NCBI GenBank assembly: GCA_030390025.1
Contig: CM059432.1
Coordinates: forward strand, 15,626,001-15,690,000
DNA: 64,000 bases
Reading direction: 5' to 3'
Source of the DNA: Squalus acanthias
Lineage: Eukaryota
The notes under the pieces were generated by a model, which worked only from the letters and a program-made list of their open reading frames with translations, was not told the DNA's origin and did no database searches. Shown one piece after another: positions 8,834 through 44,825 of the stretch. How positions within the stretch are numbered: the first letter of the stretch is position 1; every line of letters begins with the position of its first letter. The position numbers were made by a program, and so were the translations under genes.

Positions 8834-8864
8834 CCCCCCTCACATTGCTGACATTACTGAATAG

Positions 8865-9072
8865 AAGTGAGAAGTCGCACAACACCAGGTTATAGTCCAA
8901 CAGCTTTATTTGAAATCACAAGCTTTCGGAGCGGCTGCTCCTTCGTCCGCTGACGAAGGAGCAGCGCTCCGAAAGCTTGTGATTTCAAATAAAACTGTTG
9001 GACTATAACCTGGTGTTGTGCGACTTCTCACTTTTGTCCACCCCAGTCCAACACCGGCATCTCCGCATCATG
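8865..9072 (+). mobile_element. Penelope-like element family 1, fold-back palindromic 3'-end copy
   Basis: ~80-bp inverted arms around 8947-8950, a ~38-bp unpaired tail ending catcatg, and a 12-bp TSD ATTACTGAATAG (8853-8864, 9073-9084). Confidence 0.85.
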
Positions 9073-9774
9073 ATTACTGAATAGGATCACATTGTCGGGA
9101 TTTTTCTTTGAATGAAGTACAGGGATTGTGGAAGTTTTCGCTGGGTATATTAGTAATAATCGTTTACCCAATTGCTGCCATTTTGTAACTGCCTGTAGTG
9201 ACTACCACCAGCCCCGGACGTTATTTTTGCTCTGTATTTTGTGCATGAGTAGTTGCTGCCCTTATCTAAGCCTTTACAATGAATAGTCCGACACTCTTTG
9301 TTCAAAGGTGGCTAAACAGCTGCTGCCCCCCCAGGGTATTCTGTGCCTTACCCGTGTGCTGCCCCAGTGACTGCAAGAATAACAATGAGGAATAGTGTAG
9401 ATGTCACGTTAAAAGGCCAGTAACAGTAAACGGCATTGTTCTGAAGTTTAGTGGGGTTTCACCATTTTATTTCCATAATGTGTCCCCAAGATGTTATAAC
9501 CAAGGCTGACTCACTTAGAACAGACAGAGCCTTGTAGAATGGGCTTCGAACTGATTGGAACAAAGGGAATGTAAAATTAACTCAACAGCGTTACGGGATG
9601 TGGAATTTTAATAGTTTATAAACTCAGTCTTTTTTAAACTTCTAAGGGATTTTATAAGTATGAATGCTCAAAATGTCTGAACATTAAAGACACTTTACAT
9701 GGCTGTATTATATTAGTGATATCATGATAATCCATTCTGATGTTTGCTTGAGGACCCCATGACAGAATTATAAG

Positions 9775-10385
9775 AAGAAAGAAGTTGCATTTATATAGCG
9801 TCTTTTACAACACCAGGATGTCCCAAATGCTTTGCAGCCAATGAAGTACTTTTTAAAGTGTAGTCATTGTTGTAATGTAGGAAGTACGGCAGCCAATTTG
9901 TGCACAGTAAACTCTCTAATGGGCATAGTCTCAGGATAAGGGGTCGGCCATTTAGGACTGAGATGAGGAGAAATTTCTTCACTCAGAGGGTGGTGAATCT
10001 TTGGAATTCTTTACCCCAGAGGGCTGTGGAGGCTCAGTCGGTGAGTATATTCAAGGCTTAGATGGATAGATTTTTGGACTAGGGGAATCAAGGGATATGC
10101 GGATCGTGCAAAAAAAAGTGGAGTTGAGGTCAAAGATCAGCCATGATCTTATTGAATGGCGGAGCAGGCTCGAGAGGCCTACTCCTGCTGCGGTTTCTTA
10201 TGTTCTTATGTTCCCAGAAACAGCAATGTGATAATGACCAGATATTCATTTTTTAGTGATGTTGGTTAAGGGATAAATATTGGTCAGGACACAGGGAGAA
10301 CTCCCCTGCGCCTCTTCGACACAGTGCCCTGGGATCTTTTATGTCCATCTGAGAGAGCAGTTGGGGCTCGGTTTAACGTCTCATT
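9775..10385 (-). mobile_element. DeuSINE (SacSINE1/AmnSINE1-like) split by a plus-strand CR1 3' end at 9917-10213
   Basis: Deu-domain sequence on both sides (gtgcacagtaaactc|ccagaaacagcaatgtgataatgacc); the insert encodes GHSLRIRGRPFRTEMRRNFFTQRVVNLWNSLP. Confidence 0.88.
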
Positions 10386-10544
10386 CGATTTTTAATAAGG
10401 CTTTTTTAGCATGGTTTCAGTTCAAATTAACAGTTAATTTTAATTAAGCAACTTTGAACTAAGTAGAATGTAAGTTTAAAAAAGAGGATTATACGTTAAA
10501 TGGAACAGTAATGTCAGATGGTCATCGGGAGAGAGATCTAATAT

Positions 10545-10800
10545 ACTTGGACTTGCATAGCGTCTTATGGTGCATTGAAACGTTTTGTTCTGTTTTACAC
10601 GATGATTTACATTTATGGAGCGCAGTGACTTGGTATGTAGGCAAACCTGGCAGCCTTTCTGACTCGGCAATTCATTGTCTTTTGGTTTTTATTGGTTGAG
10701 GGAAGAATATTGGCTAAGATCTGCTCTTTTGCAAATAATATCTTGGGATCTTTAGTGTCCACCTGAATAAACAGACGGGATCTCGGTTTAATGTCGACAA
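10545..10800 (-). mobile_element. Degenerate DeuSINE
   Basis: Decayed ggttgagggaagaatattggc, gggatctttagtgtccacctga, ctcggtttaatgtc. Confidence 0.65.
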
Positions 10801-11946
10801 GGATTGATCTGGACAAATTTCATACGTCTGGAGTTTCTACAGGGCTCTTCAGCGAAGCCCCTGAGAAAGGACGCAAGCGGCTAAAAACGGCCCCTTCCCT
10901 GGGGCTTCTGCCGAAGTTATGGCAGGAGATCGGGAGAAGTCCGCGGAGGTTCAGGACACCACAGTCCTCGGGGCCCGAGCGTGGCTGCAGTAAAACCAAG
11001 GGGGGAATTAGACAGCCCGCCTCTGCCTATTTACCATTAACGAAGGGTCAGCGCCACCACCCGAAGGCAGTGGAAGGTCCGTTCCAGAGGCGCAGTGGGG
11101 CCATTGGAGTTTTGGGCCCCTTTCTGTTCCTATGAACACCGCATTTCCCCAGTTAGTTTGAGTGAAGTCTGATCCAGAAGTAATCTCTTTAATTTAGATT
11201 TAGTCAGCTTCTCTGTGAAGAGCCGAAAAACTTGCCAGCAAATGATTTCATATTTTCTGTATAAAGTTTAGAGACCATTTTCCATTTAATTTCAGTGGCA
11301 TCGCAAATTGATTATCTTCTCCATTGGTCCTATTTCCCTTTTCTGGACCTTTTTGTTTCTAACAGCAAGACTTTCCAGTAAAACTACAGGTTGGTTCTGT
11401 GTAAGAAAACAATCATAACATCTAAGCTGGCTGAACCAGTCGAAATTGCTCTGAAGTTAGTGCCCTTTGACTTTGTCTGCATTGCTGTTGTACTGTTTGA
11501 TAATTGCTTTTTTTCCACTTTCTGCTGTCTTTTTGAAGTGGGCAGGGACAGGAAAATGATGATGATTCTCTCCCAGCTGTGGATTCAGCTGAAACCGTCG
11601 CACCTGCAACAACAACAGCGCTGTATTCATAGGGAGTGTATTCCCACCGGAGTTCTCCTGACTGGTCGCTGTAGCTTTGGTGGAACAGCTGCGGGAATCC
11701 TGGAAAAACGGCGGGAGAATCTGCGCAGAAGTACACCCGCAGAAACTCTTGGATCACAGAAGGAGGCCATTTGGCCCACCAAGCCTGTGCCAGCTCTCTG
11801 AAAGAGCTACCCACTTAACTACAATCCCTGCCATTCCCCGTAGCCTTTAAAATTGTTTCTTTTCAAATGTATGTCCACTTCTATCCAATTCTCCGTTGTT
11901 TCTGTGTTGATCTTAAATTTAAGCCTTCTAGTTAGTGACTCACTGA

Positions 11947-12275
11947 CCAACAACAACTTGTATTTATATAGCACCTTTAACGTAGTAAAACGTCTCAAAG
12001 TGCTTCACAGGAGTATTGTAAGACAAAAAAATTTGACACGAGCCACATAAGGAGAAATTAGGGCAGGTGACCAAATGCTTGGTCAAGGAGGTAGGTTTTA
12101 AGGAGCGTCTTAAAGGAGGAGAGAGAGGTTTAGGCAGGGAATTCCAGAGCTTAGGGCCCAGGCAACAGAAGGCACGGCCACCAATGGTTGAGCGATTATA
12201 ATCATGGATGCTCAAGAGGGCAGAATTAGAGGAGCGCAGCTATCTCGAGGGGGCGGGGGGGTGGTTGTGGGTGGA
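11947..12275 (-). mobile_element. L2-clade LINE 3' end
   Basis: Encodes RSTIGGRAFCCLGPKLWNSLP; L2 tail with (ttg)n. Confidence 0.9.
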
Positions 12276-12462
12276 CCAGTGCAAATACTTCTTCCCAATA
12301 TACGTTATCAAAGCCTGTCAATATTTTAAACATCTCTATCAGATTTTCTCTTAACTTTCTATGTTCTGATGAAAAGGACCCAGTTTCTCTTGTCTCTCAC
12401 ACCTGGTATCATCTTCGTGAATCTCTTCTGCACCCTCTCCATGACCTTGACATCCGTCCTAA

Positions 12463-13075
12463 AGTATTGTGGACAGTTCTGGTCTCCATATTATAAAATC
12501 ATAGAGGCAGGTGCAAAAAAGATTTACAAGTGTGATACCAGAACTGAGAGATTATACCTATCGGGAAAGATTGAACAGCCTTCTTTCGAAAAGGAAAGGC
12601 TGAGAGGGGACCTGATCGAGGTCTTTATGAAAGGGTTTGATAGGGTAGATGTAGAGAAGATTTTTCCATTTGTGGGGAAGACCAAAACTAGGGAACATAA
12701 ATATTAAATAATCACTAATAAATCCAATAGGGAATTTAGGAGAAACTTCCTTTACCCAGAGAGTGGTGAGAATGTGGAACTTGCTACCCCAAGGAGTGGT
12801 TGAGGCGAATAGCAGAGATACATTTAAGGGGAAGCTAGATAAATACATGAGGGAGAAAGGAATAGAAGGTTATGCTTAATAACAACAGAAAATGTTGGAA
12901 GCACTCAGCAGGCCAGGCAGCATCCGTGGAGGGAGAAGCAGAGTTAACGTTTCAGGTCTGGGACCCTTATTGGGTTAGATGCAGAGGGTGGCTGGAGCCT
13001 CCTGTGGAGCATAAACACCGGCATCGACCTGTTGGGCTGAATGGCCTGGTCTTGTGCTGTAAATTCTATGTAACA
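12463..13075 (+). mobile_element. Degenerate CR1 3' fragment carrying a Penelope family-2 3' fragment (12880-12970, minus)
   Basis: YCGQFWSPYY, RLRGDLIEVF motifs; insert acagaaaatgttggaagcactcagcaggccaggcagcatccgtggag...gttaacgtttcaggtc. Confidence 0.8.
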
Positions 13076-13094
13076 CCATCAGAAACATAAAATC

Positions 13095-13260
13095 TTGTCA
13101 TTTATCTCATTGCTGTTTGTGGGATCATGCTATGTGCATATTAGCTGCTGTATTTCCCTACATTACAACAGTGACTAGGCTTCCAAAGTATGTAATTGGC
13201 TGTGAAGCGCTTTGGGATGTCCTGAGATTGTGAAAGGCGCTATATAAATGTTTTTCTTCC
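13095..13260 (+). mobile_element. DeuSINE 3' half
   Basis: cattgctgtttgtggga...cattacaacagtgact...gtgaaaggcgctatataaatg. Confidence 0.8.
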
Positions 13261-13464
13261 TTTCCTTTTTCTCACCTTATTCTTGCTCCCAGAATATATC
13301 ACCCCACATTTTTCTGCACTACATTTTATTTGACATTCATCTGCCCAAACTACTAACTTTTTGATGTCCTCCTGAAGTTGTTCACAGTTAACCACGCTCC
13401 CTATTTTTGTGTCTCCTGCATATTTTGATCCAGCAGCCCCATACGCAAGTCTAGTTCATTGAGT

Positions 13465-15510: not shown

Positions 15511-15611
15511 ATCGCTCAACCATTGGTGGCTGTGCCTTCTGTTGCCTCGGCCCTTAGCTCTGGAATTCCCTGCCTAAACCTCTCCGCCTTTCTACCTCTC
15601 TTTCCTCTTTT

Positions 15612-15681
15612 AAAAATGAGAAGTCGCACAACACCAGGTTATAGTCCAACAGTTTTACTTAAAGTTACGAGCTTTCGGAGC
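15612..15681 (-). mobile_element. Short Penelope family-1 terminal fragment
   Basis: aaaaatgagaagtcgcacaacaccaggttatagtccaacagtttt...gagctttcggagc. Confidence 0.75.
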
Positions 15682-15920
15682 TCCTTTTAAGACACAGTTT
15701 AAAACATAACTCTTTGCCCAAGCAGGGTATGTAGCATAGTGGTTCTGTTACTGGACTAGTAATCCAGAGGCCTGGACTAATGATCTGGAGATGTGTGTTC
15801 AAATCTCATCATGGCAGCTGGGGATTTTAACTTCAGTTAATTAAATAAAATCTGGAATATAAAAAATACATTTGGATTGTTGTAAAAATCCATCTGGCTC
15901 ATTAATGCCCTTCAGGGAAG

Positions 15921-19660: not shown

Positions 19661-19695
<35 letters not shown>

Positions 19696-19777: not shown

Positions 19778-20751
19778 TGTCTGCTGCCATAAATTAAAGA
19801 AGATAAATGGTGACAGGAGCTGATGATTGATTTTTGTCAGCTGCTTGAAGTTGGTGGTGTGGACAGTGCAACCCGAATAAGGGCTCTCTGATGATCTGTC
19901 ACCACTGTCAGTCCTTAAGACCCCCTGTCTCCTCTTCTACTGCCTGGATGCCAATTGAGGTTTTAGGGATGTAAGTACTGTACTTACATTCTTTCTCTAA
20001 AAGCATTATAGGGGATATTTTTTCCAGTTTAATTTAGATGGTCGCAGCACGTGCCTGATTTCTGATTGTGAGGCACCCCCGGTAGCACCAATCGGAAAAT
20101 TCTCCCCAATTTGTCCTACTGATTTCCAGGAATTCTTTCAACTTTAGATCTTAATATAAATGTGTGTGTGTGTGTTTGTGCACATGTGTGCATTGCTTAA
20201 CCCATTGAATGCCAAAATAAAAAGAAAAGCTTGTGTAAATTTTTACATAGTTACAAATGAGAATAACAGAGGCATAAATAGCTTTTGGCTTGTGTGGTTC
20301 AGTGGTTAGATGTTGGGCTTTCAGCCAGGGATTACTTGTTTGGACCGCCCCCCCCCCCCTTGCTTAAATTTAACAACATTCCCATCTCCTGTAGCGTGTC
20401 CTCATGACTAATTTGCCTAATCCAAGATAACAGATTAATTGTGCCAGCTATCTTTCTCATAATACGGTGACCAAATCTGTGTACAGAGTTCCAGGTGGGA
20501 CTGGACCAGTGCCCTGTACAGACTCGGAGTCACTTCCTAAGATTTGTGCTCTAATCCTCTGGCCATACAGCCAAGATCCCATTTTATGCTCTTTATTGTT
20601 GCTGCACACTGATGGATTTAGGGGTCTATCCACTATACCTCTTCTGTATTGTGTCCTGTCGAATAATACCATTTAACTTGCATTGCGATGATTATTATGC
20701 TGTCCCAAGCTCATGACTTTACATTTTGTCCACATTAAGTGACATCTGTCA

Positions 20752-21780
20752 CTGGCTGTAACTAGTGGGGTGCCGCAAGGATCAGTGCTTGGGCCTTGGC
20801 TATTTACAATCTATATTAATGACCTAGATGAAGGGACCGAGTGTAATGTATCCAAGTTTGCTGACAATACAAAGCTAGCTGGGAAAGTAAGCTGTGAGGA
20901 GAACGCAAAGTGTCTGCAAAGGGATATAGATAGACTAAGTGAGTGGGCAGTAAGGTGGCAGATGGAGTATAATGTAGGGAAATGTGAGGTTATTCACTTT
21001 GGTAGGAAGAATAGAAAAACAGAATATTTTTTAAATGGTGAGAAACTTTCAAATGTTGGTGTTCAGGGAGATTTGGGTGTCCTCATGCAAGAAACACAGA
21101 AGCTAGCATGCAGGTACAGCAAGCAATAAGGAAGGCAAATGGCATGTTGGCCTTTATTGCAAGAGGGTTGGAGTATAAGAGTAAGGAAGTCTTGCTACAA
21201 TTGTACAGGGCCTTGGTGAGACCACACCCGGAGTACTGTGCATAGTTTTGGTCTCCTTATCTAAGGAAGGATATACTTGCCTTGGAGGCGGTGCAACGAA
21301 GGTTCACTAGATTGATTCATGGGATGAGAGAGCTGTCCTATGATGAGAGATTGTGTAGAATGGGCTTATACTCTCTGGAGTTTAGAAGAATGAGAGGTGA
21401 TCTCATTGAAACATACACGATTCTGAAGGGGATTGACAGGGTAGATGCTGAGAGGTTGTTTCCCCTGGCTGGAGTGTCTCGAACTAGGGGGCATAGTCTC
21501 AGGATAAGGGGTAGGTCATTTAAGACCAGAGATGAGGAGGAATTTCTTCACTCAGAGAGTTGTGAATCTTTGGAATTCTCTGCCCCAGAGGGCTGTGAAT
21601 GCTGAGTCTTTGAGTATATTCAAGGCTGAGATAGATAAATTTTTGGACTCTAGGGGAATCAAGGGATATGGAGATCAGGCAGGAAAGTGGTGTTGAGGTC
21701 AAAGATCAGCCATGATCTTATTGAATGGTGGAGCAGGCAAGAGGGGGCTCCTAATTCTTATGTTCTTATTATGTTCTTAT
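20752..21780 (+). mobile_element. CR1 RT domain plus 3' UTR (frameshifted), inside an older minus-strand CR1 remnant
   Basis: SGVPQGSVLGP, YINDLD, KFADNTKL, WQMEYN motifs; CR1 tail. Confidence 0.95.
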
Positions 21781-22418
21781 CCCGGTCCTTTTCTGTTTGA
21801 TGAGGCTTTTCCCCATTACCTGTAGTCCCTCCCAATTTGTTATCATCTGCAGAAAAGAGTTTTGGTTCTTTCTGATCCAGCTTCCAAGCTATTTATGTTC
21901 ATTGTAAATGCAACAGGCCCAGCACTGACCCAGTAGTTATCTCCTTCACTGCTGATCCAGCTCCACAGTCTGTGCTTCCTCTGCTTCAGCAGGTTTTCAA
22001 TCCATCTCGGAAGCATCGACTTAGGTATTGGGTGGAGACCCTGGGTCAGAGCTGAGAGACTGGAAGGTGGGTGAGCCCCACTCGAGACAGAAAGCTGTCC
22101 CTTACTCAGCCGAAGACTGGGATTAGACACACCAGAAAGTAGCAAATGAGAAAAGGCCAACCTGCCTATCAATCTCCTTCCTTCCGCCGACCATCTGTTC
22201 TATTATAGATTTAATCTCCTGAGGAAACATTATTCAGAGTTAAGCAGCTAATGAAGGTTCTTTTGTTGAGCTGGATCGCTCTCTGAGAATTGTTCTCCTG
22301 TCCAACATAGAGGACTTCATTATAACTACTTTATATCAAGCAGCCCAGCAATTTTTAATCGGTTTAACCACAACCGTGCAATCTCTTTTGCGGGACTAAT
22401 TTGAATTTTGGTGGTAAG

Positions 22419-23368
22419 ATAGAATCATAGAAAGTTACAGCACGGAAGGAGGCCATTTCGGCCCATCATGTCCGCGCCGGCCAACAAAGAGCTATCCAGC
22501 CTAATCCCACTTCCCAGCTCTTGGTCCGTAGCCCTGCAGGTTAGAGCATCCCAAGTGCACATCCAAGTACTTTTTAAATGTGGTTAGGGTTCCTGCCTCT
22601 ACCACCCTTTCAGGCAGTGAGTTCCAGACCCCCACAACCCTCTGGGTGAAGAAATTTCCCCTCAAATCCCCTCTAAACCTTCCACCAATTACTTTAAATC
22701 TGTGCCCACTGGTTTTTGACCCCTCTGTTAAGGGAAATAGGTCCTTTCTATCCACTTTATCTAGGCCCCTCATAATTTTATACACCTCAATAAGGTCTCC
22801 CCTCAGCCTCCTCTGTTCCAAGGAAAACAGACCCAGCCTATCCAGTCTTTCCTCATAGCTAAGATTCCCTACTCCCAGCAACATCCTTGTAAATCTCCTC
22901 TGTACCCTCTCTAGTGCAATCACATCATTCCTGTAATGTGGTGACCAGAACTGCACGCACTACTCTAGCTGAGGCCTAACTAGTGTTTTATACAGTTCAA
23001 GCATAACCCCCCTGCTCTTGTATTCTATACCACGGCTAATAAAGGCAAGCATTCCGTATGCCTTCTTAACCACCTTATCTACCTGGCCTGCTACCTTCAG
23101 GGATCTGTGGGCATGCACTCCAAGGTCCCTTTGTTCCTCTACACTACTCAGTGTCCTATCATTTAATGTGTATTCCCTTTCCTTGTTAGCCCTCCCCAAA
23201 TGCATTACCTCACACTTCTCCGGATTGAATTCCATTTGCCACTGTTCTGCCCACCTGACCAATTTATTGATATCTTCCTGCAGTCTACAGCTTCCTTCTT
23301 CAGTATCAACCACACAGCCGATTTTAGTATCATCTGCAAACTTCTTAATCATACCCCCTATATTCATA
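22419..23368 (-). mobile_element. CR1 RT C-terminal part plus 3' UTR (different subfamily)
   Basis: KFADDTKIG, WQMEFNPEKC, LYKTLVRPQLE, QFWSPHYR, NFFTQRVV; tail (tctatgat)n. Confidence 0.95.
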
Positions 23369-23734
23369 TGGGGTGGGGGGGAGCGGATGGAAGATTCTGC
23401 CAATCATGTAGCTGTTAATCTGCTGCCCAGAATTTCTGAGGTACTCTGGAAATCAAGTAAAGGTCTATTCATTTGGATATTTATGCTTTGGCTAGCTGTG
23501 AAAAAGTTTACCGTTTATACTGGCTGCAACTCACTGAAGCACTTGAACAAAAAATATGAGAAATTGTCTGGACAAAGTAGTCTAAATTCTGCAGACATGA
23601 AAGCTTTTCTTGGAATTCATGACTAACAGTTTGATACCGGACAATATAATAACTTTCATTCAAATTCAGCAGATGAATTGTCTGACTGAGACAATGGCCT
23701 ATTATCTGCTTGAGTCAGCTTTTCAGGCATCGGG

Positions 23735-24105
23735 AACAATGTGGATTTATATAGCGCCTTTAGCGTGAAACATCCCAAGGCGCTTCACAGGGGTGTAATC
23801 AGACTAATCAAGCTAAAGCAAGAGACATTAGGTCAAGCTTGGTCAAAGGGGTACATTTTAAGGAGCATCCAGCAGGGACAGGGTACTGAATTTGGATGAT
23901 CAGCCATGATCTCATTAAATGGCGGAGCAGGCTCGAGGGGCCGAATGGCCTACTCCTGCTCCTATCTTCTATGTTTCTATCTGAAAGGTCTAGAGAGAAG
24001 TGGAGAGGTTAAGGGAGGAAGTTCCAAAGCTTGGGGCCTAGCCAGCTGAAGGCACGGCCGCCAATGGTGGAGCGAAGGAATTTGGGGGATACACAAGAGG
24101 CAGGC
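23735..24105 (-). mobile_element. L2 3' end with a plus-strand CR1 tail inserted at 23872-23980
   Basis: atttatatagcgcc...tttaaggagcatc|cagcagggacagggtactg...ttctatgtttctat|ctgaaagg. Confidence 0.8.
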
Positions 24106-24320
24106 TTTATCCTACCTGGCCTATCACCTGTGCTTTAAATTTACATTTTATATATTTAGATATTTTTTGGTGCTCCTCAACGTGAGGGATGTCCATGCTG
24201 GCGAGTGGAACACTTGCCCACTCGTTGCACCCAGTGCCAGCGTCCATTAAACCTTTTTCCTCAACAATGTGCCTTAACTCTAGTCTCGGAAGAGCTGCTC
24301 TGCATCAGTCTGAACTATGC

Positions 24321-25540
24321 AGTTCTGGCATGGGTGGAGGATTGGTTATCTAACAGGAAGCAGAGAGTTGGGATAAATGGTTCATTCTCGGACTGGCAAC
24401 CAGTAGCCAGTGGTGTTCCGCAGGGGTCGGTGCTGGGTCCCCAACTCTTTACAATCTATATTAACGATTTGGAGGAGGGGACCGAGTGTAACATGTCAAA
24501 GTTTGCAGATGATACAAAGATGGGAGGGAAAGTAGAAAGTGCGGAGGACATAAAAAACCTACAAGGGGATATAGACAAGCTGGGTGAGTGGGCGGAGATT
24601 TGGCAGATGCAATACAATATTGGAAAATGTGAGGTTATGCACTTTGGCAGGAAAAATCAGAGAGCAACTTATTATCTTAATGGCGAGAAACTGGAAAGTA
24701 CTGCAGTACAAAGGGAACTGGGGGTCCTAGTGCAAGAAAATCAAAAAGTTAGTATGCAGGTGCAGCAGGTGATCAAGAAGGCCAACGGAATGTTGGCTTT
24801 TATTGCTAGGGGGATAGATTATAAAAACAGGGAGGTATTGCTGCAGTTATATAAGGTATTGGTGAGACCGCATCTGGAATACTGCATACAGTTTTGGTGT
24901 CCATACTTAAGAAAAGACATACTTGCTCTCGAGGCAGTACAAAGAAGGTTCACTCGGTTAATCCCGGGGATGAGGGGGTGGACATACGAGGAGAGGTTGA
25001 GTAGATTGGGACTCTACTCATTGGAGTTCAGAAGAATGAGAGGCGATCTTATTGAAACATATAAGATTGTGAAGGGGCTTGATCGGGTGGATGCGGTAAG
25101 GATGTTCCCAAGGATGGGTGAAACTAGAACTAGGGGGCATAATCTTAGAATAAGGGGCTGCTCTTTCAAAACTGAGATGAGGAGAAACTTCTTCACTCAG
25201 AGGGTAGTGGGTCTGTGGAATTTGCTGCCCCAGGAAGCTGTGGAAGCTACATCATTAAATAAATTTAAAACAGAAATAGACAGTTTCCTAGAAGTAAAGG
25301 GAATTAGGGGTTACGGGGAGCGGGCAGGAAATTGGACATGAGGCTGAGTTCGGATCGGTCGAGGCCCTGTGGGTGGCATAGCGGGCCCAGGGGCTGAGTG
25401 GCCGGGTCCTGCTCCTACTTCTTGTGTTCTTTAGATTTGAGGTGAGGATCAGATCAGCCATGATCTTATTGAATGGCGGAGCAGGCTCGAAGAGCCGATT
25501 GGCCTACTCCTGCTCCTATTTCGTATGTTCCTATTTCTTA
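24321..25540 (+). mobile_element. Young CR1: open RT C-terminal frame to the stop at 25341, with a double 3' tail
   Basis: WLSNRKQRV, SGVPQGSVLGP, YINDL, KFADDTK through to NWT*; candidate TSD tatgca on both sides. Confidence 0.95.
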
Positions 25541-27787: not shown

Positions 27788-27789
27788 TA

Positions 27790-30930: not shown

Positions 30931-30934
30931 AGAT

Positions 30935-31260: not shown

Positions 31261-32057
31261 CTGCTGATGTCACCAATGGCAATTTCTAAACTCTTTTGTT
31301 TGTAAATCATGTTCCAGCACTTACGTGATGATGGATTGCTAATGCTATTGTACTGGAGAATTAAGGATTGACCTGTCCTTTTTTTCTCAAGAAGACAATA
31401 TTATTGCTGCCCAAGCACTTTTAGGTACTGTTACAGCCACTTTGATGTCCCAGCCCAAATGGTAAGTTACTGGAGGAATCCTCCGTTGCCACCGATGACA
31501 ATGCTAGGAAAGAGGAGAACTTAGCTTGTTGGCAACTTGGTTGAAGGTCTGTCAGAATATCCTCTAATTGGGTTTGACTAATTACACTCTGTGAAATTTG
31601 AAGATTCAAGTCCGACAATGAAAATGGTGCTCTGTTAAATGTGGAGCGGACTTCAATCATATGTGCCACATCCTGCATGACAAATATGCAAAGTGTAATT
31701 AAAAAAGACACAAAATTGTGAGGAGAGGAAGTTTAGTTCGAATTGTCACTTTGTCTTTTGGTGGTTACAGTTTTATTACTTGAATGATCTGGTGACAAGT
31801 TGATCGCTTTTTTACTTTCTAATCTGTGGTACATTGTAGTTTTTAGCATTGAAATTTGAAAGGGGTAGAGAGAATACCATTTATCTGCCTGTGAGAAAAA
31901 TAAACACACGATCTATACATTTGGCTGAATTAATGAAGTGTCATTTTTAAAGAGTACGGTCCATATATTCTTGTACAATTAACCTTTTGAAAATTTATGT
32001 AGCTGTTTCAATGTAGGTTTTATGGTGAAACAGCAATTTACTTATACTTGTAATTTA

Positions 32058-32685
32058 GTATGCTGTATTCGCTGCTCACGATGCGGTCTCCCAACGCTGA
32101 TTGGGTGACCGCTTTGCGGAACAACTCCGTTCAGTCCGTAAGCGTGACCCCGAGCTTCCGGTCGCCTGTCACTTTAATTCTCCGGACCACTCCCACTCTG
32201 ATCTCTCTGTCCTCGGCCTCCGACACTGTTCCGATGAAGCTCAACGTAAGCTCGAGGAACAGCACCTCATCGTTCGATTAGGCACTTTACAGCCTTCTGG
32301 CCTCAACATTGAGTTCAACAATTTCAGACTATAATCTCTGCCTCCAATTTTCGGACAGCAGCTGTTGATGATTCTGCTATTCCCATCTACACCCATATTT
32401 TGTTCCTTTACTTGTCCCATTATCATCTCCTTTTGCCCTGCACCATCATCCCTTTTTGTCATTTAATCTCTCCTGCCTTCCACCCTATCACCGACCTTCC
32501 CTTTTGTTCTTTCCTCCCTCCCCCCTTTCCCTGCCTCTACACTTGCTTAAAATCTGTTATGTCTCAAACTTTTTCCAGTTCTGACGAAGACCTGAAACGT
32601 TAACTCTGTTTCTCTCTCCACAGATGCTGCCTGACCTGCTGTGCATTTCCAGCATTTTCTGTTTTTTATTTCAGATTTCCGGCAG
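32058..32685 (+). mobile_element. Penelope-like element family 2: GIY-YIG endonuclease C-terminus plus 3' terminal repeat
   Basis: CIRCSRCGL (YIG codons deleted), GDRFAEQLRSVR, PVACHFNS, RKLEEQHLIVRLGTLQPSGLNIEF*; hammerhead-like motif at 32577-32605. Confidence 0.9.
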
Positions 32686-32968
32686 TATTTTGTTATTCTA
32701 TTTGGTTTTATGGTCCCCGCTTTTTTCCTTTGTAAATAAAAACCTATTGTGTCATTTGATGGTGGGAAGTGTTGCTAAGTACATACAAAAACTAGAAATG
32801 TTGTTCTTTCTGAATACAAATTGATCAGTAAAATATAAAAGAAGTAACCGTTCATCTACGTACTTCTTCAATGCTTTGTAGCTTTCCTGCAATGGTAAAC
32901 TAGTTGAGTTATGCTTAAGTATGAGCTAGTTTTAGTAGTAACAGTCATTCCTCTTTGTCAGCAGTCTG

Positions 32969-35768: not shown

Positions 35769-35958
35769 GAGCCCCGAACTGGCTCCAAGGCGGAGTGACG
35801 GACTCTGCCTCATTCTGATGTCAGATCGGTTTCTGACTCTGGATTCAAACTGCATTCCCACTCTAACCGCTTCGCACCAGTTGCAGTGTAAGCGTACCCT
35901 GGGGATATCTTAAAACTATGATCCTTCAAAAATACAATTTAGTGCATCAGTTAAAAAT

Positions 35959-36240
35959 AGCAAAATACTGCGGATGCTGGAAATCTGAAATAACAGCAGA
36001 AAATGTTGGAAACACTCGGCAGGTCAGGCAGCCTCCGTGGAGAGAGAAACAGAGTTAACGTTTCTAACTCTGTTTCTCTCTCCACGGATGCTGCCTGACC
36101 TGCCGAGTGTTTTCAGCATTTTCTGTAGTTAAAAAAAAAATAGATCTGCTTATAACAGAAAACGCTGGAAAAACTCAGCAGGCCAGGCAGCATCCGTGGA
36201 GAGAGAAAGAGAGTTAACGTTTCAGGTCGATGACCTTTCA
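35959..36240 (-). mobile_element. Two adjacent Penelope family-2 3'-end insertions: a fold-back hairpin (35959-36126) and a linear copy (36152-36239)
   Basis: ~60-bp inverted arms around acgtttc (36058-36064); second copy flanked by a 13-bp TSD AATAGATCTGCTT (36139-36151, 36240-36252). Confidence 0.85.
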
Positions 36241-37132
36241 ATAGATCTGCTTGTTGCTTTGTATCTGGTTACAAAGAGTGCAGTTGGTGACCAGGAGAAA
36301 AAAATTTACATGAAAAGTTCCCTTTAACAGAAAGTTGGGTTGAGTTAAATTTGGCATTTCCTACCAAGTCTGGATTTCTGCTAATCTTTTTATATACTGA
36401 AGTTTGGCGATCTTTCCTTAAAAATCTGAAATCTGTTCACAGTAACCCACTCTAATCCATTATAGGCAAAGGTTTAGATGAAAAAGTTGACTGTTGTGGC
36501 GAATTTCAAAATGTAACTAATAATAGTTCTGTACAGTCCACACGTAGAATTTATGAAGTGTGAATTCAGGTTGGCCTGCCAAGAATAAGCACATTGTCGA
36601 TAAAACGTGTAATTACAAGGTCAGATTTCAACAACGGTGCAATATTTTTTGTGCAGTTGGGTGCTCGTGTTTTTATGGACATCTCGAGCATTGTGTGCAC
36701 AAGTATTAGACGTGGTGTTGAGTTACTTTTTGTAGGTCTTGGAAGGTCCGTTCTCCTCCAGAGGAAATGTATTCATTCATCCGTCTCCCCATCTGGCTGT
36801 GAAGGTTGCTTTGATGCCCACTTTTACAGAGCGCTGGATAAAGCAGCATTCTGTGAAAGGGGCCTTTCATTTCCTCCGAGGGTCTTCCCGAGGAGGGTCA
36901 GGTTCCCTGAACAAAAGAGCAGGCCCATTGCTTCATGTCGGCTGAGCAGCCTCTCGCTGCGACAGAAGATGGACTGTACGTACTTCAGCCACACAACCTC
37001 TGGACCTAGAACCTGATCTTTCAGCAAAACAGAAACTCAACTTACAACAAACAGCTTCCCTGAGACTCTTGTTTGCTTAAGCCTGAAATTTCAGCACTTG
37101 GCTGCATGTATTGAGTAAGGGTTATTTATTTT

Positions 37133-38812: not shown

Positions 38813-39030
38813 TTATGCACCTATAAACAATTCTGTGGCAGACCTAAATGGGAATATCAACATACAAACGGTCAGTGACCTTGGCCAGAAAATAATACAT
38901 GGCCCTGGGGAGTATCTGTCACACATTCAATTCCGCACAGCATTTTGAAACAGTAGGACGGCTGGCTCCTTGAAGATGTGAGCTACGTAGTTCAATCCTG
39001 GCTGATGACACCTCTGTGTAACCTCTGTAC

Positions 39031-39302
39031 ATGATGCGGAGATGCCGGTGTTGGACTGGGGTGGACAAAATTGAGAGGTCGCACAACACCAGGTTATAGT
39101 CCAACAGTTTTATTTTAAATCACAAGCTTTCGGAGTTACAACTCCTTCGTCGGGTGAAGTGAGGAGATACAGAATCGTCAAAAGCTTTTGACGATTCTGT
39201 ATCTCCTCACTTCACCCGACGAAGGAGTTGTAACTCCGAAAGCTTGTGATTTAAAATAAAACTGTTGGACTATAACCTGGTGTTGTGCGACCTCTCAATT
39301 TT
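39031..39302 (-). mobile_element. Penelope family-1 insertion forming a perfect 236-bp palindrome (39067-39302) plus a 36-bp tail
   Basis: Arms are exact reverse complements about AAAAG|CTTTT (39184/39185); TSD AACCTCTGTAC at 39020-39030 and 39303-39313. Confidence 0.92.
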
Positions 39303-39649
39303 AACCTCTGTACTCCAGCAAAGATCTAATACACACTGAGCAACCAGTTGCTTGGGAAAGTCTGGGGGGCGGGGGGAGGGGGACGGATTAACAATAAAGG
39401 TAAGCAACATTGGATTAGCATAGTGAATGCTGTACGCAGAGCCCTCACAATGGGCTTGGATGAGGAGCAGCAGCGAGGCATTTTGGGCAAAGACCATGTG
39501 CAGATGCCAGCAGTAATGAGCCGTTGTAACCAGGGGCGACAGGTGTGGACGGCGCACGATAGCTAGCACTTGCAGGGAGCTCTACAGCTTTTCCACTGTG
39601 ACTTTCTAATGAACACGTTTACAGTCTGGGAGCTGCTAGCTGCTTTACC

Positions 39650-39855
39650 TGTTTTCTTTACCCAGAGAGTGGAACTCGCGACCTCCCGGAGTAGTTGAAG
39701 CGACTAGTATAATTGCATGTAAGGGGAAGCTAGATAAGCATATCGAAGGTTATGCTGATAGAGTTCGATGAGGAAGGATGGGGGGGGAGGCTCGAGTGGA
39801 GCGTAAACTGATCGGGCCGAATGGTCTGTTTATGTGCTGTATAGTCTATGTTATG
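39650..39855 (+). mobile_element. Degenerate CR1 3' end
   Basis: ctttacccagagagtgg...aaggggaagctagataagca...gggccgaatggtctg. Confidence 0.7.
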
Positions 39856-40692
39856 CCGCAAAGCACCATTCTGTTCACTTTGGTCCACTTTTGGAAAAAT
39901 GACAGTTCCTTTTCAAAAGATTCTTGACTACAGGATATATTAAAGTGCCATTTTTATTTAGCACCTGAGGTGTTTGAGTGCGTTGGTTTTTAAGCGTATT
40001 TAATGTCACTCTTCAAGGTGAAGTGCTCTCCGAGCTGAGGGAGTGGCCATGTTAGTCTGTTGCTGCCTGGGATTCAGATGCCCAGCTACCTGCATTGTAA
40101 CTAAGTGATACACCTGAAACAGAAGTGCCTTGTACAACAGATGTCCGCTCCTGTGTTTCTGTGCGTGCAATTGCTGGGTCCATCTCCTCATGAGGACGAG
40201 TTATCTGTCTGAGCCTAAAATACTAGGCCGCACCGAAGTTTTTGAACCTCTCCCCCTTAAGATTTTGTTTGTTACCTGTTAATGTTTGATGAAATAGGAC
40301 TTGCAGAGTTGTATAGTTTTATCGTCTTGCTTTACTTTAATCATGCAGTGTACACAATTAGTAGAAAAGATTGCTTTATAAGGAACATTTGACCCTGACT
40401 GTTTGGAAGAAAGTACCTTTTTAATGATGATTTGGCTCCTGTTGTGAGATTAGAGCGTTTGCTGATTAAACTGGGTTGGATTTCATTGTTTTCTCCTTCA
40501 GACCGGTTTGTATATTGGCAGCAACATCTGGGGTATTACAAAGGTCGATTTTCTTGTAGATAATGCTATTTCTAATCAGGAGGCACGTGTGGTTATTGGA
40601 AAGAATTTGTTCATGTAAACTATCTTATCTCAGTGAAAGCTTTTGTTAAAAATTACCCCAATGAAAGCAATGTCACTGCCTTTTCATTTCTT

Positions 40693-40897
40693 GAGAAGTC
40701 GCACAACACCAGGTTATAGTCCAACAGTTTTATTTGAAATCACAAGCTTTCGGAGCGGCTGCTCCTTCGTCAGGTGAAGTGAAGGAGCAGCCACTCCGAA
40801 AGCTTGTGATTTCAAATAAAGCTGTTGGACTATAACCTGGTGTTGTGCGACTTCTCACTTTTGTCCACCCCAGTCCAACACCGGCATCTCCGCATCA
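40693..40897 (+). mobile_element. Penelope family-1 fold-back copy
   Basis: ~77-bp inverted arms with a 12-nt spacer, tail ending cgcatca; 12-bp TSD TTTTCATTTCTT (40681-40692, 40898-40909). Confidence 0.88.
40740..40777 (-). ncRNA. Minimal type-I hammerhead ribozyme motif (Penelope-type)
   Basis: Minus strand UCAC-CUGACGA-A-GGAGC-AGCC-GCUCC-GAA-AGCU-U-GUGA: stem I UCAC/GUGA, stem II GGAGC/GCUCC, loopless palindromic stem III. Confidence 0.7.
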
Positions 40898-41339
40898 TTT
40901 TCATTTCTTAGCCTGTAGTTTGGAAATTCCGCTGTGCGACTTCCTTGTACTAACACTTACCATGTTCGTATTATACGCCTCTTTCAGCTGTTTTAACGTA
41001 GGCACGGATTTTTTTGTTTTTTATTCATTCATGGGATGTGGGCGGCACTAGCAAGGCCAGCATTCATTAGCCTTGAGAAGGTGGTGGTGAAAATAATACT
41101 TCCATTAAAATAGCGGACGTAGGAATTTGAAAAGAATGTGTTGAGCATTCATGTTATAATATAGCACAGCATAATTTTGAAGCTCATAAGTCAAATTAAC
41201 ATTTGTTTCCCCTGTCAAATAGTTTTTAAAGAACTTTCAATGCTGGTTTTAAAAAAAAAAAACCACAAGTACTTTTAGAAGACCTGGGGGACACATTTTG
41301 AGAAACCTATTGTTCAAATCTGTTGTCTTCATGGACTGA

Positions 41340-41845
41340 TAGCCCCTGCAATAGCGAGAGAGCACCTGGGGCGGGAGTGCTGTGTGTAGGGGCTGGGGTG
41401 GGAATGTTGGGTGGGGCTCCATGGTCTGCGGGGGGAGTGGGGAAGCCTGGGGTCAGGGGAGGTCCAAAGTTTCCTTGCAGGCCCTGGAGAAATGCTCCTT
41501 CTGCTCCTAGCTCACAAGGATTAAAAAATAATCAAGAACTTACCCGGGCCTCTTCTGGCCAGGATTCCGCCTGCCACTAGGTTTCCTCGGAGGCTCCAGC
41601 CCTGGGCATTGCAGCCACAATTCCCAGTTGTGATTGCGCCGGGGTCCGAATGATGTCATCAGATCCTGCAATTCAATATTAATGAGGCCCCCACTTGCCT
41701 GTGGCGGGCAGATTGGCGCTTGCAAAACCCGGGAGCTAAAATAACGTGGGCACAAACGCGGGGGGAACGCAGTGTGTAGTGCCTGACCGCCATTTTACCC
41801 CACCCACGCCATTCCCACCGAACGGGCAGGGTTAAAATCAGGACT
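41340..41845. mobile_element. GC-rich non-autonomous element remnant
   Basis: CpG-rich block ending gggttaaaatcaggac, like the other MITE termini. Confidence 0.5.
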
Positions 41846-42659
41846 GTAACCTTCATTCAGGGGCTCTTGAGTTCCGATCACAGTGCGATCGACTCAAGTT
41901 TTGTCAAGGGTCCACGAAAGTTCACTTTTTGGTTGTGCGTGCATTTTTGGAAGAAAGGGATAGGAATGTGCGTGCTGTACTGCAGAACTATGTCATCCAC
42001 CATCTGCTCCGTGACATAGTTGACATCATCAGGTCTGTGGTCCATATGGCCTTCCTCTCCCAGGCGAAAGACGTGGGTGGTTAGCAATAGCAGGCACTGT
42101 GAGCAAACATGGTGTAAAAGATAAATAAAAGGGATATTGTACCCCTGTTGACTTTCCTGTGAGAACAGAAATGGTTTGTGGTGCGTTGGTAGATCTTCAG
42201 ATGTGTTCCCAAGCATGGTGCTCATTCCACTCCACTTCAGTCTGCCTGTTGAGAAATGTTCATTTAAATTGTTAATCTGTATACAGTCGGGATTGGAGCA
42301 GCTGTCTTTAATAAATAGTCTGACAATAGTCTGATTCTGTTCATTCAAAGTTTCTTTTTGCTTGAAAAAAATCAAAGGATCTGGTTGTTCGAATTTGAAT
42401 CAAAGCACAGGAGTGGTTTTTTTCCCGGAGGATTTCAAACAGATAATTCAAATGAAGAAAGACAACCGTCCATGTCTCGAAAGACGATGGTATGAGTGCT
42501 GAAGCAGTCCAGTTACTTTGCCATGCAGCGACATTGTGCAATTCAAATTAAGAGGAGTAGATGCAAAGTAAATTAACTGTTGGTCAGATCAAGATAAAAT
42601 GCCTTTGTGGAATTCCTCATTGCAGATTGCAGTTCAGACCTTGATGTGCATCAGTTCAG

Positions 42660-43200
42660 TTCCTTATGTAAACTTGAGGTCATCCAAGACTTGGCTGCCC
42701 GTGTCCTAACTCGCACCAAGTCCCGTTCGCCCATCACCTCCGTGCTCGCTGACCTACATTGGCTCCCGGTTAAGAAAACGCCTTGATTTTAAAATTCTCA
42801 TTCCGGCACAGACACGATGGGCCGAATGGTCTCCTTCTGTGACGTAAATTTCTATGATTCATCCTTGTTTTCAAATCCCTCCCTGGGCTCGCCCCTCCCT
42901 ATCTCTGTAATCTCCAGCCCAACAACCCTCCCAGATATTTGCGCTTCAGTTCTGGCCTCTTGCGCATCCCGATTTTAATCGCTGCACCATTGGCGGCCGT
43001 GCCTTCAGCTGCCTCGGCCCTTAAGCTCTGGAATTCCCTCCCTAAACCTCTCCGCCTCTCTACCTCTCTCCTCCTTTAAGACGCTCTTTGACCAAGCTTT
43101 TGGTCATCTGTCCCAGGTCGGTGTCAAATTTTGTTTGCTAACGCTCCTGTGAAGCGCCTTGGGACATTTTACTATGTTAAAGGCGCTATATATGTGTATA
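42660..43200 (+). mobile_element. L2 3' end with a short CR1 tail inserted at 42803-42860
   Basis: aaacttgaggtcatccaagac...aaaattctcatt|ccggcacagacacgatgggccgaatgg..ctatgattc|atccttgttttc. Confidence 0.88.
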
Positions 43201-44145
43201 TATAATTGATGTATATTGTACACAACCTGCTTGAAAAATCAAGCATTAGTGAAACAGCCATATTAAAGTTCATAACAATGTAGATTTGGTGTTGCATCAA
43301 CGTTAAAAATTGTAGTAAAACCACAAGTGAAGTTGCCAGACTTGCAGCAGATCATATTTTGACACAAAGTGCAAGACAACAACAACTACTTGCATTTATA
43401 CAGCGCCTCTAACATAGTAAAACGTCCCGATTCGCATGTTTAACCAGCCTTCTCCCGGCCTGTTTCAGGCAGGCTGCCTGCCCATTGCGTCAGCTGAGCT
43501 TTAGGATTACTGGGGGGTGGCTGAGGCGGCCCCGACCCTGATTTTTCAATTGCTGGCCGCCTGTCTCTCAGGTGAGAAATCGCCCCCAACATGCTGGTTC
43601 TCTCCACAGGTGCTGACTGACCTGCTGACTGTCTCCAGCATTTTCTTTGTTTATATGAGTTATTTTGCCTTCTTTTGAAACTTTGCTTGGCTAATGAAAA
43701 GCCTTTGTGGAATTTTTATTGAGTGTGTGATAATGATCTGCCCTCAAGAATGTTTTGTGGCTTTGGCTTAAGAACCATCAACATAGTAGACTGTCTGCTT
43801 CATTTTATTGAAGTGGTTTACAGTGACTCAACGGTAATTGTTTTGACTAGGCTCCAACTGAAGCTAACTTGGTATTTTTGATGTATTTTAAATCAACTCA
43901 AATTGGTTCTTAGATTGATCTTCTAATATTCTTGTGTGCTGTGATTTTTAGAATTTGCTTAAATTCATTGTGGTCATTTTCTTTAATGTGATAAATATTC
44001 TGTTGTACACTTTCAAATGCTATTAGATAACCTAAATCCTAATGAATATATAATTTTCCCGCGTGTGAGTGTGCGTGTGTATACTGGGAGTCTTGTGCAT
44101 TGTCAGAGCCAGCATATTTTCCACAAATGTGTCACCTTGTACAAC

Positions 44146-44600
44146 GTGATGCGGAGATGCTGGTGTTGGACTGGGGTGGACAAAAATGAGAAGTTGCACA
44201 ACACCAGGTTATAGTCCAACAGTTTTATTTGAAATCACGAGCTTTCGGAGCGCTGCTCCTTCGTCAGGTAAAGTGAGGGAATACAAATCAGCAAAGCATA
44301 TATAGACAGAGAACAATGTGTTTCTGACTGCCCTCCATCACACCTCGGCAGAGATACAATCAGTCAGGAAGGCATTACATCAAAGACACAGCAAAATACA
44401 GCTAAGACAATGAGGTGGGGTCACAGGGGGTCCAACATGTCAAATGCTGCAGTCTGCAGTTAAGCTTTTTACTTTTTTTTAAAAACTGGAAATCACATCT
44501 GTGAACAAGACAATGACGACTCGAGTCTGGATGACTTTACGTCATGTAGCGTGACATGAAACCAAGATCCCGGTTGAGGCCGTCCTCATGGACGGCCTCA
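44146..44600 (-). mobile_element. Penelope family-1 copy: last ORF codons, 3' UTR and terminal repeat, with a short 5' fold-back
   Basis: Minus strand encodes HEDGLNRDLGFMSRYMT* (GIY-YIG PLE C-terminus); 14-bp hairpin at 44572-44603; 12-bp TSD ACCTTGTACAAC (44134-44145, 44601-44612). Confidence 0.9.
44235..44271 (-). ncRNA. Minimal type-I hammerhead ribozyme motif with CUC cleavage triplet
   Basis: Minus strand UUAC-CUGACGA-A-GGAGC-AGC-GCUCC-GAA-AGCU-C-GUGA. Confidence 0.7.
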
Positions 44601-44825
44601 ACCTTGTACAACAACAAGGAATGTGCCCCTTTTTGTCGATTTGAAGAAGGTTAGCATTCTCTGAGCATGTGTCGGCTGACGTGCAGAATAGGACAGTCCA
44701 GCTGGCTCCTAATCTACTACCCTCTAGTCTTTCAGCATTGCCACTTGCCTTCAGTGTTTCATCTATTCTAATGTCATCTGTGGTTTTAAAATTGCACAGC
44801 TAAGCTGGGTAGCAGTAACTATAAT

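What the first reader, a model, noticed from the sequence alone, without database searches (positions are those of the whole stretch)
8853..44612. Recurrent architecture TSD-[inverted arm]-[terminal repeat + hammerhead]-[~37-nt tail]-TSD: a possible palindromic ribozyme mini-retroelement family
Seen: four independent insertions (8865-9072, 39031-39302, 40693-40897, 44146-44600) each have an 11-12 bp TSD and a 5' inversion. In three, the inverted arm stops within a few bases of the same point (..cttctcactttt), leaving the same tail ending CATCA(TG). Turn-around points differ, and two lie in the hammerhead core. The 44146 copy links the repeat to a GIY-YIG C-terminus (GLNRDLGF). Established: Penelope-like elements have pseudo-LTRs that can be inverted, a short 3' extension, and minimal hammerheads. 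Inference: either a stereotyped fold-back integration mechanism or a non-autonomous, MITE-mimicking retroelement. Such copies could be misannotated as DNA MITEs.
Basis: partly seen in the sequence, partly recalled or inferred. Interest (0 to 1): 0.72.

Follow-up and report, generated by a model that had tools for sequence, protein, structure and literature searches.

The report
Short Penelope retrotransposon insertions, shark-type
These small mirror-image insertions are stumps of a known kind of jumping gene (a Penelope-like retrotransposon), not a new self-copying mini-element, but the small differences between their two halves hint that each half is copied from a separate RNA molecule as the element lands.

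Summary
In detail: four insertions with exact 12-bp target duplications, one shown as an empty site in a related organism. They are ends of a high-copy Penelope-like element of Neptune/Nematis type. The copy-4 peptide matches the C-terminus of shark RT+GIY-YIG proteins (15/16), and the tail ATG is the ORF start codon. The layout (inverted tail-less pLTR, 30-40 bp tail, TSD, junction palindrome) is already described (PMC3846280, PMC8557442, PMC2377424). A self-propagating palindromic mini-element is not supported. All four junctions differ. A fifth copy ends at the arm end-point with no tail or inversion. An unrelated family in the window has the same layout. The tail-bearing arm has an intact hammerhead in only 1 of 4 copies. 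What is new is a mechanistic hint: in 2 of 3 palindromes the arms differ at the same common family variant, in opposite arms, and one junction cannot come from fold-back of a single cDNA. Both target nicks probably prime separate RNAs at the two start sites that bound the tail (inferred). The scan reported de novo arms before, in another genome.

The parts
8853..8864 (+). c1 left target-site duplication (12 bp)
8865..8947 (-). c1 inverted tail-less arm; ends at site 1 (c4 coordinate 44184); carries the G allele at the 44223-equivalent site and the 4-nt loop II
8950..9033 (+). c1 direct pLTR arm, beginning at C3 of the hammerhead core (8950-8982; helix I 5' strand missing); A allele, 3-nt loop II
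9034..9072 (+). c1 tail (39 nt): acceptor-like CAG at 9044-9046, ending in the ORF start ATG (9070-9072)
9073..9084 (+). c1 right target-site duplication
15612..15681 (-). c5: solo copy of the same family, no tail, no inversion, 3' end at site 1 (44182); 7-bp duplication-like flanks 15607-15613/15684-15690, overlapping the element end
39019..39030 (+). c2 left target-site duplication
39031..39067 (-). c2 tail (37 nt)
39068..39184 (-). c2 direct arm, divergent subfamily; hammerhead core from 39153 with U4C and one compensated stem II pair
39185..39301 (+). c2 inverted tail-less arm, identical to the direct arm (117/117); zero-spacer junction at 39184/39185; ends at site 1 (44183)
39302..39313 (+). 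c2 right target-site duplication
40681..40692 (+). c3 left target-site duplication
40693..40782 (-). c3 inverted tail-less arm; ends at site 1 (44188); holds the full hammerhead and the 12-nt spacer 40769-40780; A allele; 2-nt microhomology at 40781-40782
40781..40856 (+). c3 direct arm, begins inside the hammerhead core; G allele
40857..40897 (+). c3 tail (41 nt), acceptor-like CAG at 40871
40898..40909 (+). c3 right target-site duplication
44134..44145 (+). c4 target-site duplication (single copy at the empty site in organism B)
44146..44183 (-). c4 tail; 147 (X1), 122 (X5) and 21 (X15) contigs leave the element at 44147
   Evidence: table 7
44235..44271 (-). c4 minimal type I hammerhead (helix I, CUGACGA, 5-bp helix II, GAAA, palindromic 2-nt helix III insert, UC)
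   Evidence: layout as in PMC4209133; cleavage not tested
44272..44536 (-). c4 3' untranslated region
44537..44590 (-). last 17 codons and stop of the RT/GIY-YIG ORF
   Evidence: 15/16 identical to the C-terminus of P0011; tblastn E 1.5e-4
44575..44600 (-). c4 5' hairpin: 11-bp stem, 4-nt loop; 3 further nt shared with the target duplication
44601..44612 (+). c4 second target-site duplication
35961..36126 (.). comparison: unrelated second Penelope-like family with the same layout (tail-bearing arm on -, tail-less inverted arm on +, flanking duplication with an expanded A run)

Best explanation
These are insertion products of an endonuclease-positive Penelope-like retrotransposon of Neptune/Nematis type, very abundant in a shark-type genome (shown). 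The pLTR carries a minimal hammerhead and is followed by a ~40-nt tail that holds a splice-acceptor-like site and ends at the ORF start codon (shown by homology). The element has two 3' ends: site 2 at the ATG and site 1 about 40 nt upstream (shown). These are read as the two reverse-transcription start sites (inferred from the anole element, PMC11167929). The endonuclease nicks both target strands 12 nt apart. One nick primes an RNA at site 2, the other primes a second RNA, or a second pLTR of the transcript, at site 1. The two short cDNAs are joined head to head through microhomology or a short native palindrome (inferred). Each palindrome is therefore built afresh and is not itself the template. 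Copies are short because priming near the RNA's 5' end leaves little to copy (inferred, weakest step). c4 is a longer cDNA ending in a small local fold-back; c5 is a single priming at site 1.
For: Identity: (RT YIDD and ADKG motifs, CX4CxxC linker, Cys pair inside GIY-YIG in P0011). Tail ATG: P0135 holds the tail in frame, 7 of 9 residues identical; the next best of 92,812 nine-residue windows in 141 proteins is 5 of 9; its Met aligns with the first Met of P0136 and P0020. De novo: 4 of 4 junctions differ. c5 and family-2 copy 36152-36239 end at site 1 with no partner. The 3 opposite-strand joints listed have depths of 5-135 against summed repeat depths of about 1-6 million. Two templates: the c1 arms differ at 2 of 83 positions and the c3 arms at 2 of 76. 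One difference in each is the same site, 44223 T>C, a common family variant (22% X1, 31% X5, 63% X6 by summed contig depth), lying in the short arm of c1 but the long arm of c3. The c1 indel also segregates among window copies. Rough post-hoc chance 0.002. In c3 the spacer belongs to the tail-less arm, so neither arm can be a fold-back copy of the other. Both strands cut and extended, two start sites bounding the tail, and a predicted dimer are reported for the anole element (PMC11167929).
Against: Only three palindromes were read whole. The c2 arms are identical (117/117) while c2 is a divergent subfamily, which one template or fold-back explains more simply. c4's hairpin is not at site 1 and shows that local fold-back happens. 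c1 and c2 have near-perfect symmetric centres, which fold-back gives naturally. Gene conversion from other copies, or a mutation-prone site, could produce the arm differences. A later deletion at the centre could produce the c3 asymmetry. The contig data are insensitive to palindrome centres, and 647 loose-end rows and 14 variant rows were not shown. The in vitro data come from a Poseidon-clade element whose start sites lie 111-118 nt inside the ORF, not at the ATG. The pieces linking pLTR, tail and full ORF come from other sharks; no intact copy from this genome was seen.
Confidence: 0.58

Rival explanations
1. Same element, but the inverted arm arises by fold-back or self-priming of one nucleic acid at a short palindrome. 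The copy is then trimmed or stops about 40 nt short of the tail end by endonuclease-mediated resolution. This is the published view: self-priming in PMC3846280, resolution by the endonuclease in PMC8557442.
For: c4's 11-bp hairpin has a 4-nt loop and two seed pairs. c2 has identical arms and a zero-spacer centre. The c1 centre sits on a native quasi-palindrome at the hammerhead start. Junction palindromes are described in rotifer elements.
Against: It does not give arms that differ at common family variants (c1, c3). It cannot make c3 without a later deletion. Site 1 is also used alone, with no arm to trim (c5; family-2 solo copy).
Confidence: 0.27
2. A self-propagating, non-autonomous palindromic ribozyme mini-retroelement that mimics a MITE, copied as a unit from palindromic master copies.
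For: The layout recurs in 3 of 5 window copies. The terminal ~120 nt is several-fold deeper than the upstream body in contigs. One opposite-strand joint has depth 135, above single-copy level (~17), so a few loci may share it. Non-autonomous pLTR derivatives exist (PMC8557442; bioRxiv 10.64898/2026.07.22.740005).
Against: No two junctions are alike. Orientation, arm length and allele phase differ between copies. The hammerhead is broken in the tail-bearing arm of all three palindromes. An unrelated family shows the same layout. No high-depth shared joint was listed.
Confidence: 0.06
3. The arms were identical at insertion, by either route. The differences and the c3 asymmetry arose later, by gene conversion from the many other copies and by deletion at the unstable palindrome centre. 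The arm alleles then say nothing about mechanism.
For: The very high copy number gives many donors. Instability of palindrome centres is general knowledge (recalled).
Against: It needs separate events in 2 of 3 copies at the same site, and palindrome arms would be expected to homogenise each other rather than diverge (inference).
Confidence: 0.09

Closest known systems
Penelope insertions of Adineta vaga (Pen2a_Av; PMC3846280) and Drosophila virilis (PMC2377424)
   Same: [quoted passage not shown]
   Different: Here the unit is cut down to the last 120-150 nt with no ORF between the arms, TSDs are 12 bp, and the copy number is very high.
Neptune/Nematis clades of endonuclease-positive Penelope-like elements (PMC8557442)
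   Same: RT followed by C-terminal GIY-YIG, CX2-5CxxC linker, two Cys inside GIY-YIG, hammerhead in the pLTR, 30-40 bp tail, adjacent inverted 5'-truncated copy, intron upstream of the ORF suggested.
   Different: No (TA)n targeting in these five copies. Neptune versus Nematis was not decided by a tree.
Poseidon element of Anolis carolinensis, PAc (PMC11167929)
   Same: Two 3' end-points bounding a tail; both target strands nicked and extended in vitro; hammerhead next to the ORF start.
   Different: Different clade. PAc start sites are 111-118 nt inside the ORF; here site 2 is at the ATG. In the parts read, the paper does not treat inverted pLTRs.
L1 twin priming (recalled; only listings seen)
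   Same: Second target nick primes a second cDNA, giving a 5' inversion joined by microhomology inside a TSD.
   Different: L1 arms usually do not overlap and the second site varies. Here the arms overlap, the second site is fixed, and two templates are suggested.
Non-LTR retrozymes (bioRxiv 10.64898/2026.07.22.740005)
   Same: Short pLTR-derived, hammerhead-bearing, non-coding.
   Different: Retrozymes are head-to-tail tandems with a hammerhead in each unit; these are dispersed head-to-head pairs, mostly with broken hammerheads.

Membership tests
Endonuclease-positive Penelope-like element | Terminus attached to an ORF with RT and C-terminal GIY-YIG | tested here: met
   c4 peptide 15/16 identical to the C-terminus of P0011 (RVT_1 E 5e-9; GIY-YIG motif with Cys pair). 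Shown through proteins of other sharks; only 17 codons are in the window.
Endonuclease-positive Penelope-like element | Optional 30-40 bp tail and inverted 5'-truncated pLTR | tested here: met
   Tails of 37-41 nt in c1-c3, tail present in c4, absent in c5; inverted arms in 3 of 5 copies.
Endonuclease-positive Penelope-like element | Target-site duplication | tested here: met
   12 bp in 4 of 5 copies (c5: 7 bp, uncertain); empty site for c4.
Endonuclease-positive Penelope-like element | Minimal hammerhead in the pLTR | tested here: met
   Core motifs and helices present in c4 and in the c3 short arm. 41 of 42 cells pair and slid controls reach 17-56%, but covariation is not above shuffles (163 of 500). 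No Rfam hammerhead hit at E up to 1. Activity not testable.
Endonuclease-positive Penelope-like element | Partial-tandem full-length copy (pLTR-ORF-pLTR) in this genome | not testable with these tools
   No genome is held. In another shark, P0135 shows the tail followed by the ORF start.
Neptune/Nematis clades | CX2-5CxxC linker between RT and endonuclease | tested here: met
   Present in P0011, P0020 and P0022; criterion from PMC8557442.
Neptune (as against Nematis) | Placement in an RT tree with reference elements | not tested
   No labelled reference sequences were held.
Non-autonomous self-propagating mini-element | Many copies with the same junction and arm ends | tested here: not met
   0 shared junctions among 4 window copies; no high-depth joint among the 3 opposite-strand joints listed (low sensitivity).
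MITE (DNA transposon derivative) | Inverted repeats reaching both termini, fixed short TSD | tested here: not met
   The inverted repeat stops 37-41 nt short of one end, TSDs are 12 bp, and the terminus belongs to an RT ORF.
Non-LTR retrozyme | Head-to-tail tandem units, each with a complete hammerhead | tested here: not met
   Head-to-head pairs; no tandem among the 5 copies.

The most novel reading that the evidence does not exclude
The inverted pLTR of Penelope-like elements is made by a double-ended priming reaction. A dimeric enzyme nicks both target strands and primes two different RNA molecules (or two different pLTRs) at two fixed internal start sites, one at the ORF start codon and one in the pyrimidine tract of the upstream splice acceptor. 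The two cDNAs are then joined head to head. The many tiny palindromes in shark genomes record this as arms with different family alleles, so one assembly could settle the open question of how PLE inverted repeats and tails form.
Probability: 0.45. Interest if true: 0.62.

Novelty: new member of a known kind. Interest (0 to 1): 0.33.

Why it matters
As a structure it is ordinary for Penelope-like elements, and it explains a large class of short palindromes that hairpin- or MITE-finders could mislabel (Rfam scored c1 as a microRNA-like hairpin below threshold). The value is as a test bed. How these elements make inverted pLTRs and tails is called undefined in PMC8557442, and the published suggestions (self-priming, endonuclease resolution) predict identical arms. 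Arms that differ at family-diagnostic sites point to two templates and can be counted genome-wide. The tail also appears to be the 5' leader of the ORF, with a splice acceptor that host gene models in sharks seem to use.

Tried and rejected
No whole genome was held, so the genome-wide plot of arm ends and turn-around points could not be made; one contig lay-on (4 of 24 listed runs, all contigs) stood in for it. Rfam gave no hammerhead family at E up to 1, only sub-threshold microRNA hairpins. Pfam on 150 frames (the 37-aa frame at c4 plus 149 of the 161 frames of 78 aa or more) found no Penelope domain, only CR1/L2-type domains. Of 3 hits, P0001 and P0003 are repetitive proteins matched through flank-derived residues and were dropped; only P0002 was used. 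Folding of the pLTR plus tail is no better than shuffles (z -0.4 to 0.3), so a 9-bp match between tail and upstream pLTR is not claimed as a structure. Stem II covariation is not significant. I first read the loose-end consensus beyond the tail (agreement 0.38-0.39) as the ORF start; a motif search of 134 proteins found nothing, and the homologues agree with it only for the first two codons, so that reading was dropped. No RNA holder was listed as such; X15 is only guessed to be RNA and is no evidence on expression. Summed contig depth was not taken as a copy number. A lariat-derived origin of site 1 was considered and left aside, since two start sites arise in vitro without splicing (PMC11167929). 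Supplement 2 of PMC11167929 is an image and gave no text; its other supplements and those of the other papers were not read and may show inverted junctions. PMC3681739 and PMC5753468 passages added nothing on the layout.
Full report
Observation. The four insertions are real. Each has an exact 12-bp direct repeat at its ends, which 3 of 20,000 random intervals reach. For copy 4 (c4), a contig of a related organism joins the two flanks with one copy of the 12-mer (run X6, depth 29), so it is an insertion with a target-site duplication. c1-c3 have a tail-bearing direct arm and a tail-less inverted arm. Mapped on c4, the short arms end at 44184, 44183 and 44188, leaving tails of 39, 37 and 41 nt. 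c4 has only an 11-bp hairpin at its 5' end, inside coding sequence. A fifth copy (15612-15681) has neither tail nor inversion and ends at 44182.

What the element is. The 17 codons before the stop in c4 led to P0002 (1 of 3 hits, the other two dropped as repetitive). P0002 led to 14 proteins, mostly from sharks. P0011 ends with 15 of 16 residues identical to the window peptide and has an RT domain, a CX4CxxC linker and a Cys pair inside the GIY-YIG motif. By the criteria quoted in PMC8557442 (passages) this is an endonuclease-positive Penelope-like element of Neptune or Nematis type; no tree was made. The host is called shark-type from these homologues only. The pLTR holds a minimal type I hammerhead of the kind described in PMC4209133 (abstract and passages). 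The pairing is near complete (41 of 42 cells), but covariation is not above shuffles (163 of 500) and Rfam gave no hammerhead hit. In the tail-bearing arm it is intact only in c4. The family is very abundant: summed contig depth is about 18 on the flanks, 3-5 million on the last 120 nt and 0.3-0.8 million upstream in X1 (not a copy number). 147, 122 and 21 contigs of X1, X5 and X15 leave the element at the tail end into varied flanks.

The tail. A search with the N-terminus of a full-length relative gave 7 proteins. P0135, a gene model of another shark, carries the tail in frame: 7 of 9 residues match the c1 reading that ends in the tail ATG, against a next best of 5 of 9 among 92,812 windows. 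That Met aligns with the first Met of P0136 and P0020, and P0136 overlaps P0011 at 82% over 84 residues. The likeness to P0135 begins at the codon spanning a CAG in the tail, which follows a pyrimidine tract and a branch-like motif. c1, c3 and c4 pass a simple rule met 47 times in 128 kb; c2 and the second family do not pass its branch part. This fits an intron upstream of the ORF, as PMC8557442 suggests; splicing was not observed here.

Is the palindrome a unit that copies itself? The evidence says no. All four junctions differ: c1 is centred at the start of the hammerhead core, c2 has no spacer and lies about 30 nt further upstream, c3 is asymmetric, and c4 lies in the ORF end. Site 1 is used alone by c5. 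An unrelated family in the window (local alignment score 16 against family 1; own GIY-YIG end at 32131-32307) shows the same layout at 35961-36126 and a tail-less solo with a 13-bp duplication at 36152-36239. The contig lay-on listed 12 joints, 3 of them between opposite strands, with depths 4.9-135. None is high, but contigs break at palindrome centres, so this test is weak, and the 135 row may be shared by a few loci.

How the arms are made. The c2 arms are identical (117/117). The c1 arms differ at 2 of 83 positions and the c3 arms at 2 of 76. One difference in each lies at the same site, equivalent to 44223, where T>C is a common family variant: 22% in X1, 31% in X5 and 63% in X6 by summed depth. 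It lies in the short arm of c1 and the long arm of c3. The c1 indel separates a 3-nt from a 4-nt loop II, and both forms occur in other window copies. The fourth difference is a CpG transition. A rough post-hoc chance for random mutation is 0.002 (uniform rates, 4 common sites taken from a table with 14 rows hidden, no conversion). In c3 the 12-nt spacer is native upstream sequence of the tail-less arm, and the arms overlap by 2 nt. The tail-less arm has no tail to copy and the tail-bearing arm lacks the spacer, so neither can be a fold-back copy of the other. PMC11167929 (parts 1-2 of 4 read; supplement 2 unreadable) reports that the anole element cuts and extends both target strands, starts at two internal sites that bound the tail, and is predicted to be a dimer. 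Together these suggest that the two nicks prime two templates, at site 2 and site 1, and that the cDNAs are joined by microhomology (inference, 0.58). Two joints of X5 (44183 to 44274 and 44186 to 44273) have shorter sides of 37 and 40 letters, exactly the distance to the tail end. They may be copies in which the tail alone is joined to an inverted upstream piece, but the table does not say which side is the short one. Against this reading stand c2's identical arms, the symmetric centres of c1 and c2, c4's local hairpin, the small sample, and possible later conversion or deletion. Fold-back with trimming keeps 0.27.

Comparison with what is known. PMC3846280 (passages and Discussion) describes Pen2a with an inverted pLTR 37 bp shorter than the direct ones, a 31-bp tail at one end, a 9-bp duplication and junction palindromes, and proposes self-priming. 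PMC8557442 (passages) calls an adjacent inverted 5'-truncated copy and a 30-40 bp tail typical and ascribes them to endonuclease resolution. PMC2377424 (passages) gives the 34-37 bp repeat at the ORF start and inverted repeats of variable size. PMC8969392 (passages) lists inverted pLTRs and 3' extensions for curators. The retrozyme preprint (part 1 of 5 and passages) concerns tandem derivatives. So the layout is known, and this is a further member in its shortest form. In eight paper searches and the papers read from them, I saw no statement that the two arms come from two templates, and nothing on this shark family. The library lacks most subscription journals, including Arkhipova 2006 and Evgen'ev and Arkhipova 2005, which I did not read, and Repbase/Dfam could not be searched. 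L1 twin priming is recalled; only listings were seen. Two earlier notes of this scan on another genome reached the same general reading. They appeared after my first statement of it and are not independent evidence.

Verdict. The insertions are real and well-defined products of a known class of retroelement. The new mini-element reading is unlikely (0.06). The allele discordance between arms is a small but testable lead on an open mechanistic question. Interest 0.33.

Noticed in passing
window 31900-32714, 35949-36252, 12878-12958, 43599-43646: Second, unrelated Penelope-like family: GIY-YIG end at 32131-32307, hammerhead core near 32581, 11-bp duplication 32016-32026/32704-32714, a palindromic copy, a solo tail-less copy with a 13-bp duplication directly beside it, and two more fragments. 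Its tail also has a pyrimidine tract followed by CAG, and its short arms end in that tract.
   Followed up: partly
window 9044, 40871, 44173: Splice-acceptor-like site inside the tail; site 1 lies in its pyrimidine tract, a few nt after a branch-like motif. P0135 looks like a host exon spliced onto it.
   Followed up: partly
P0012, P0013, P0017, P0035, P0149, P0004: Several shark gene models (XRCC5, PPP1R12A-like, septin 5a, epn2, divergent protein kinase domain 2Ab, a PYRIN protein) contain pieces of this element's ORF, which suggests exonisation or annotation read-through.
   Followed up: no
window 44268-44269 (table 2): Summed contig depth falls about fourfold (elevenfold in X6) just upstream of the hammerhead core. 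Either 5' ends cluster there or subfamilies diverge upstream and stop being laid.
   Followed up: partly
joints 44183-44274 and 44186-44273: Opposite-strand joints at site 1 whose shorter sides equal the tail length; possibly the tail alone joined to an inverted upstream segment.
   Followed up: no
window 8996-9004 with 9045-9053: The tail has a perfect 9-nt complement in the pLTR about 45 nt upstream, which would put site 1 in a loop; overall folding is not better than shuffles.
   Followed up: partly
P0002: This unnamed 106-aa protein holds the GIY-YIG C-terminus twice, as a partial-tandem insertion would give.
   Followed up: no
window 2-2025 (-), 20743-25338: CR1/L2-type LINE pieces: esterase (GDSL) ORF1, AP endonuclease and RT domains.
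   Followed up: no
window 3684-3886: Long imperfect hairpin that scores below threshold as a microRNA precursor; it seems to be made of two repeat ends in opposite orientation.
   Followed up: no
window 15580-15720: c5 is inserted inside another interspersed repeat.
   Followed up: no
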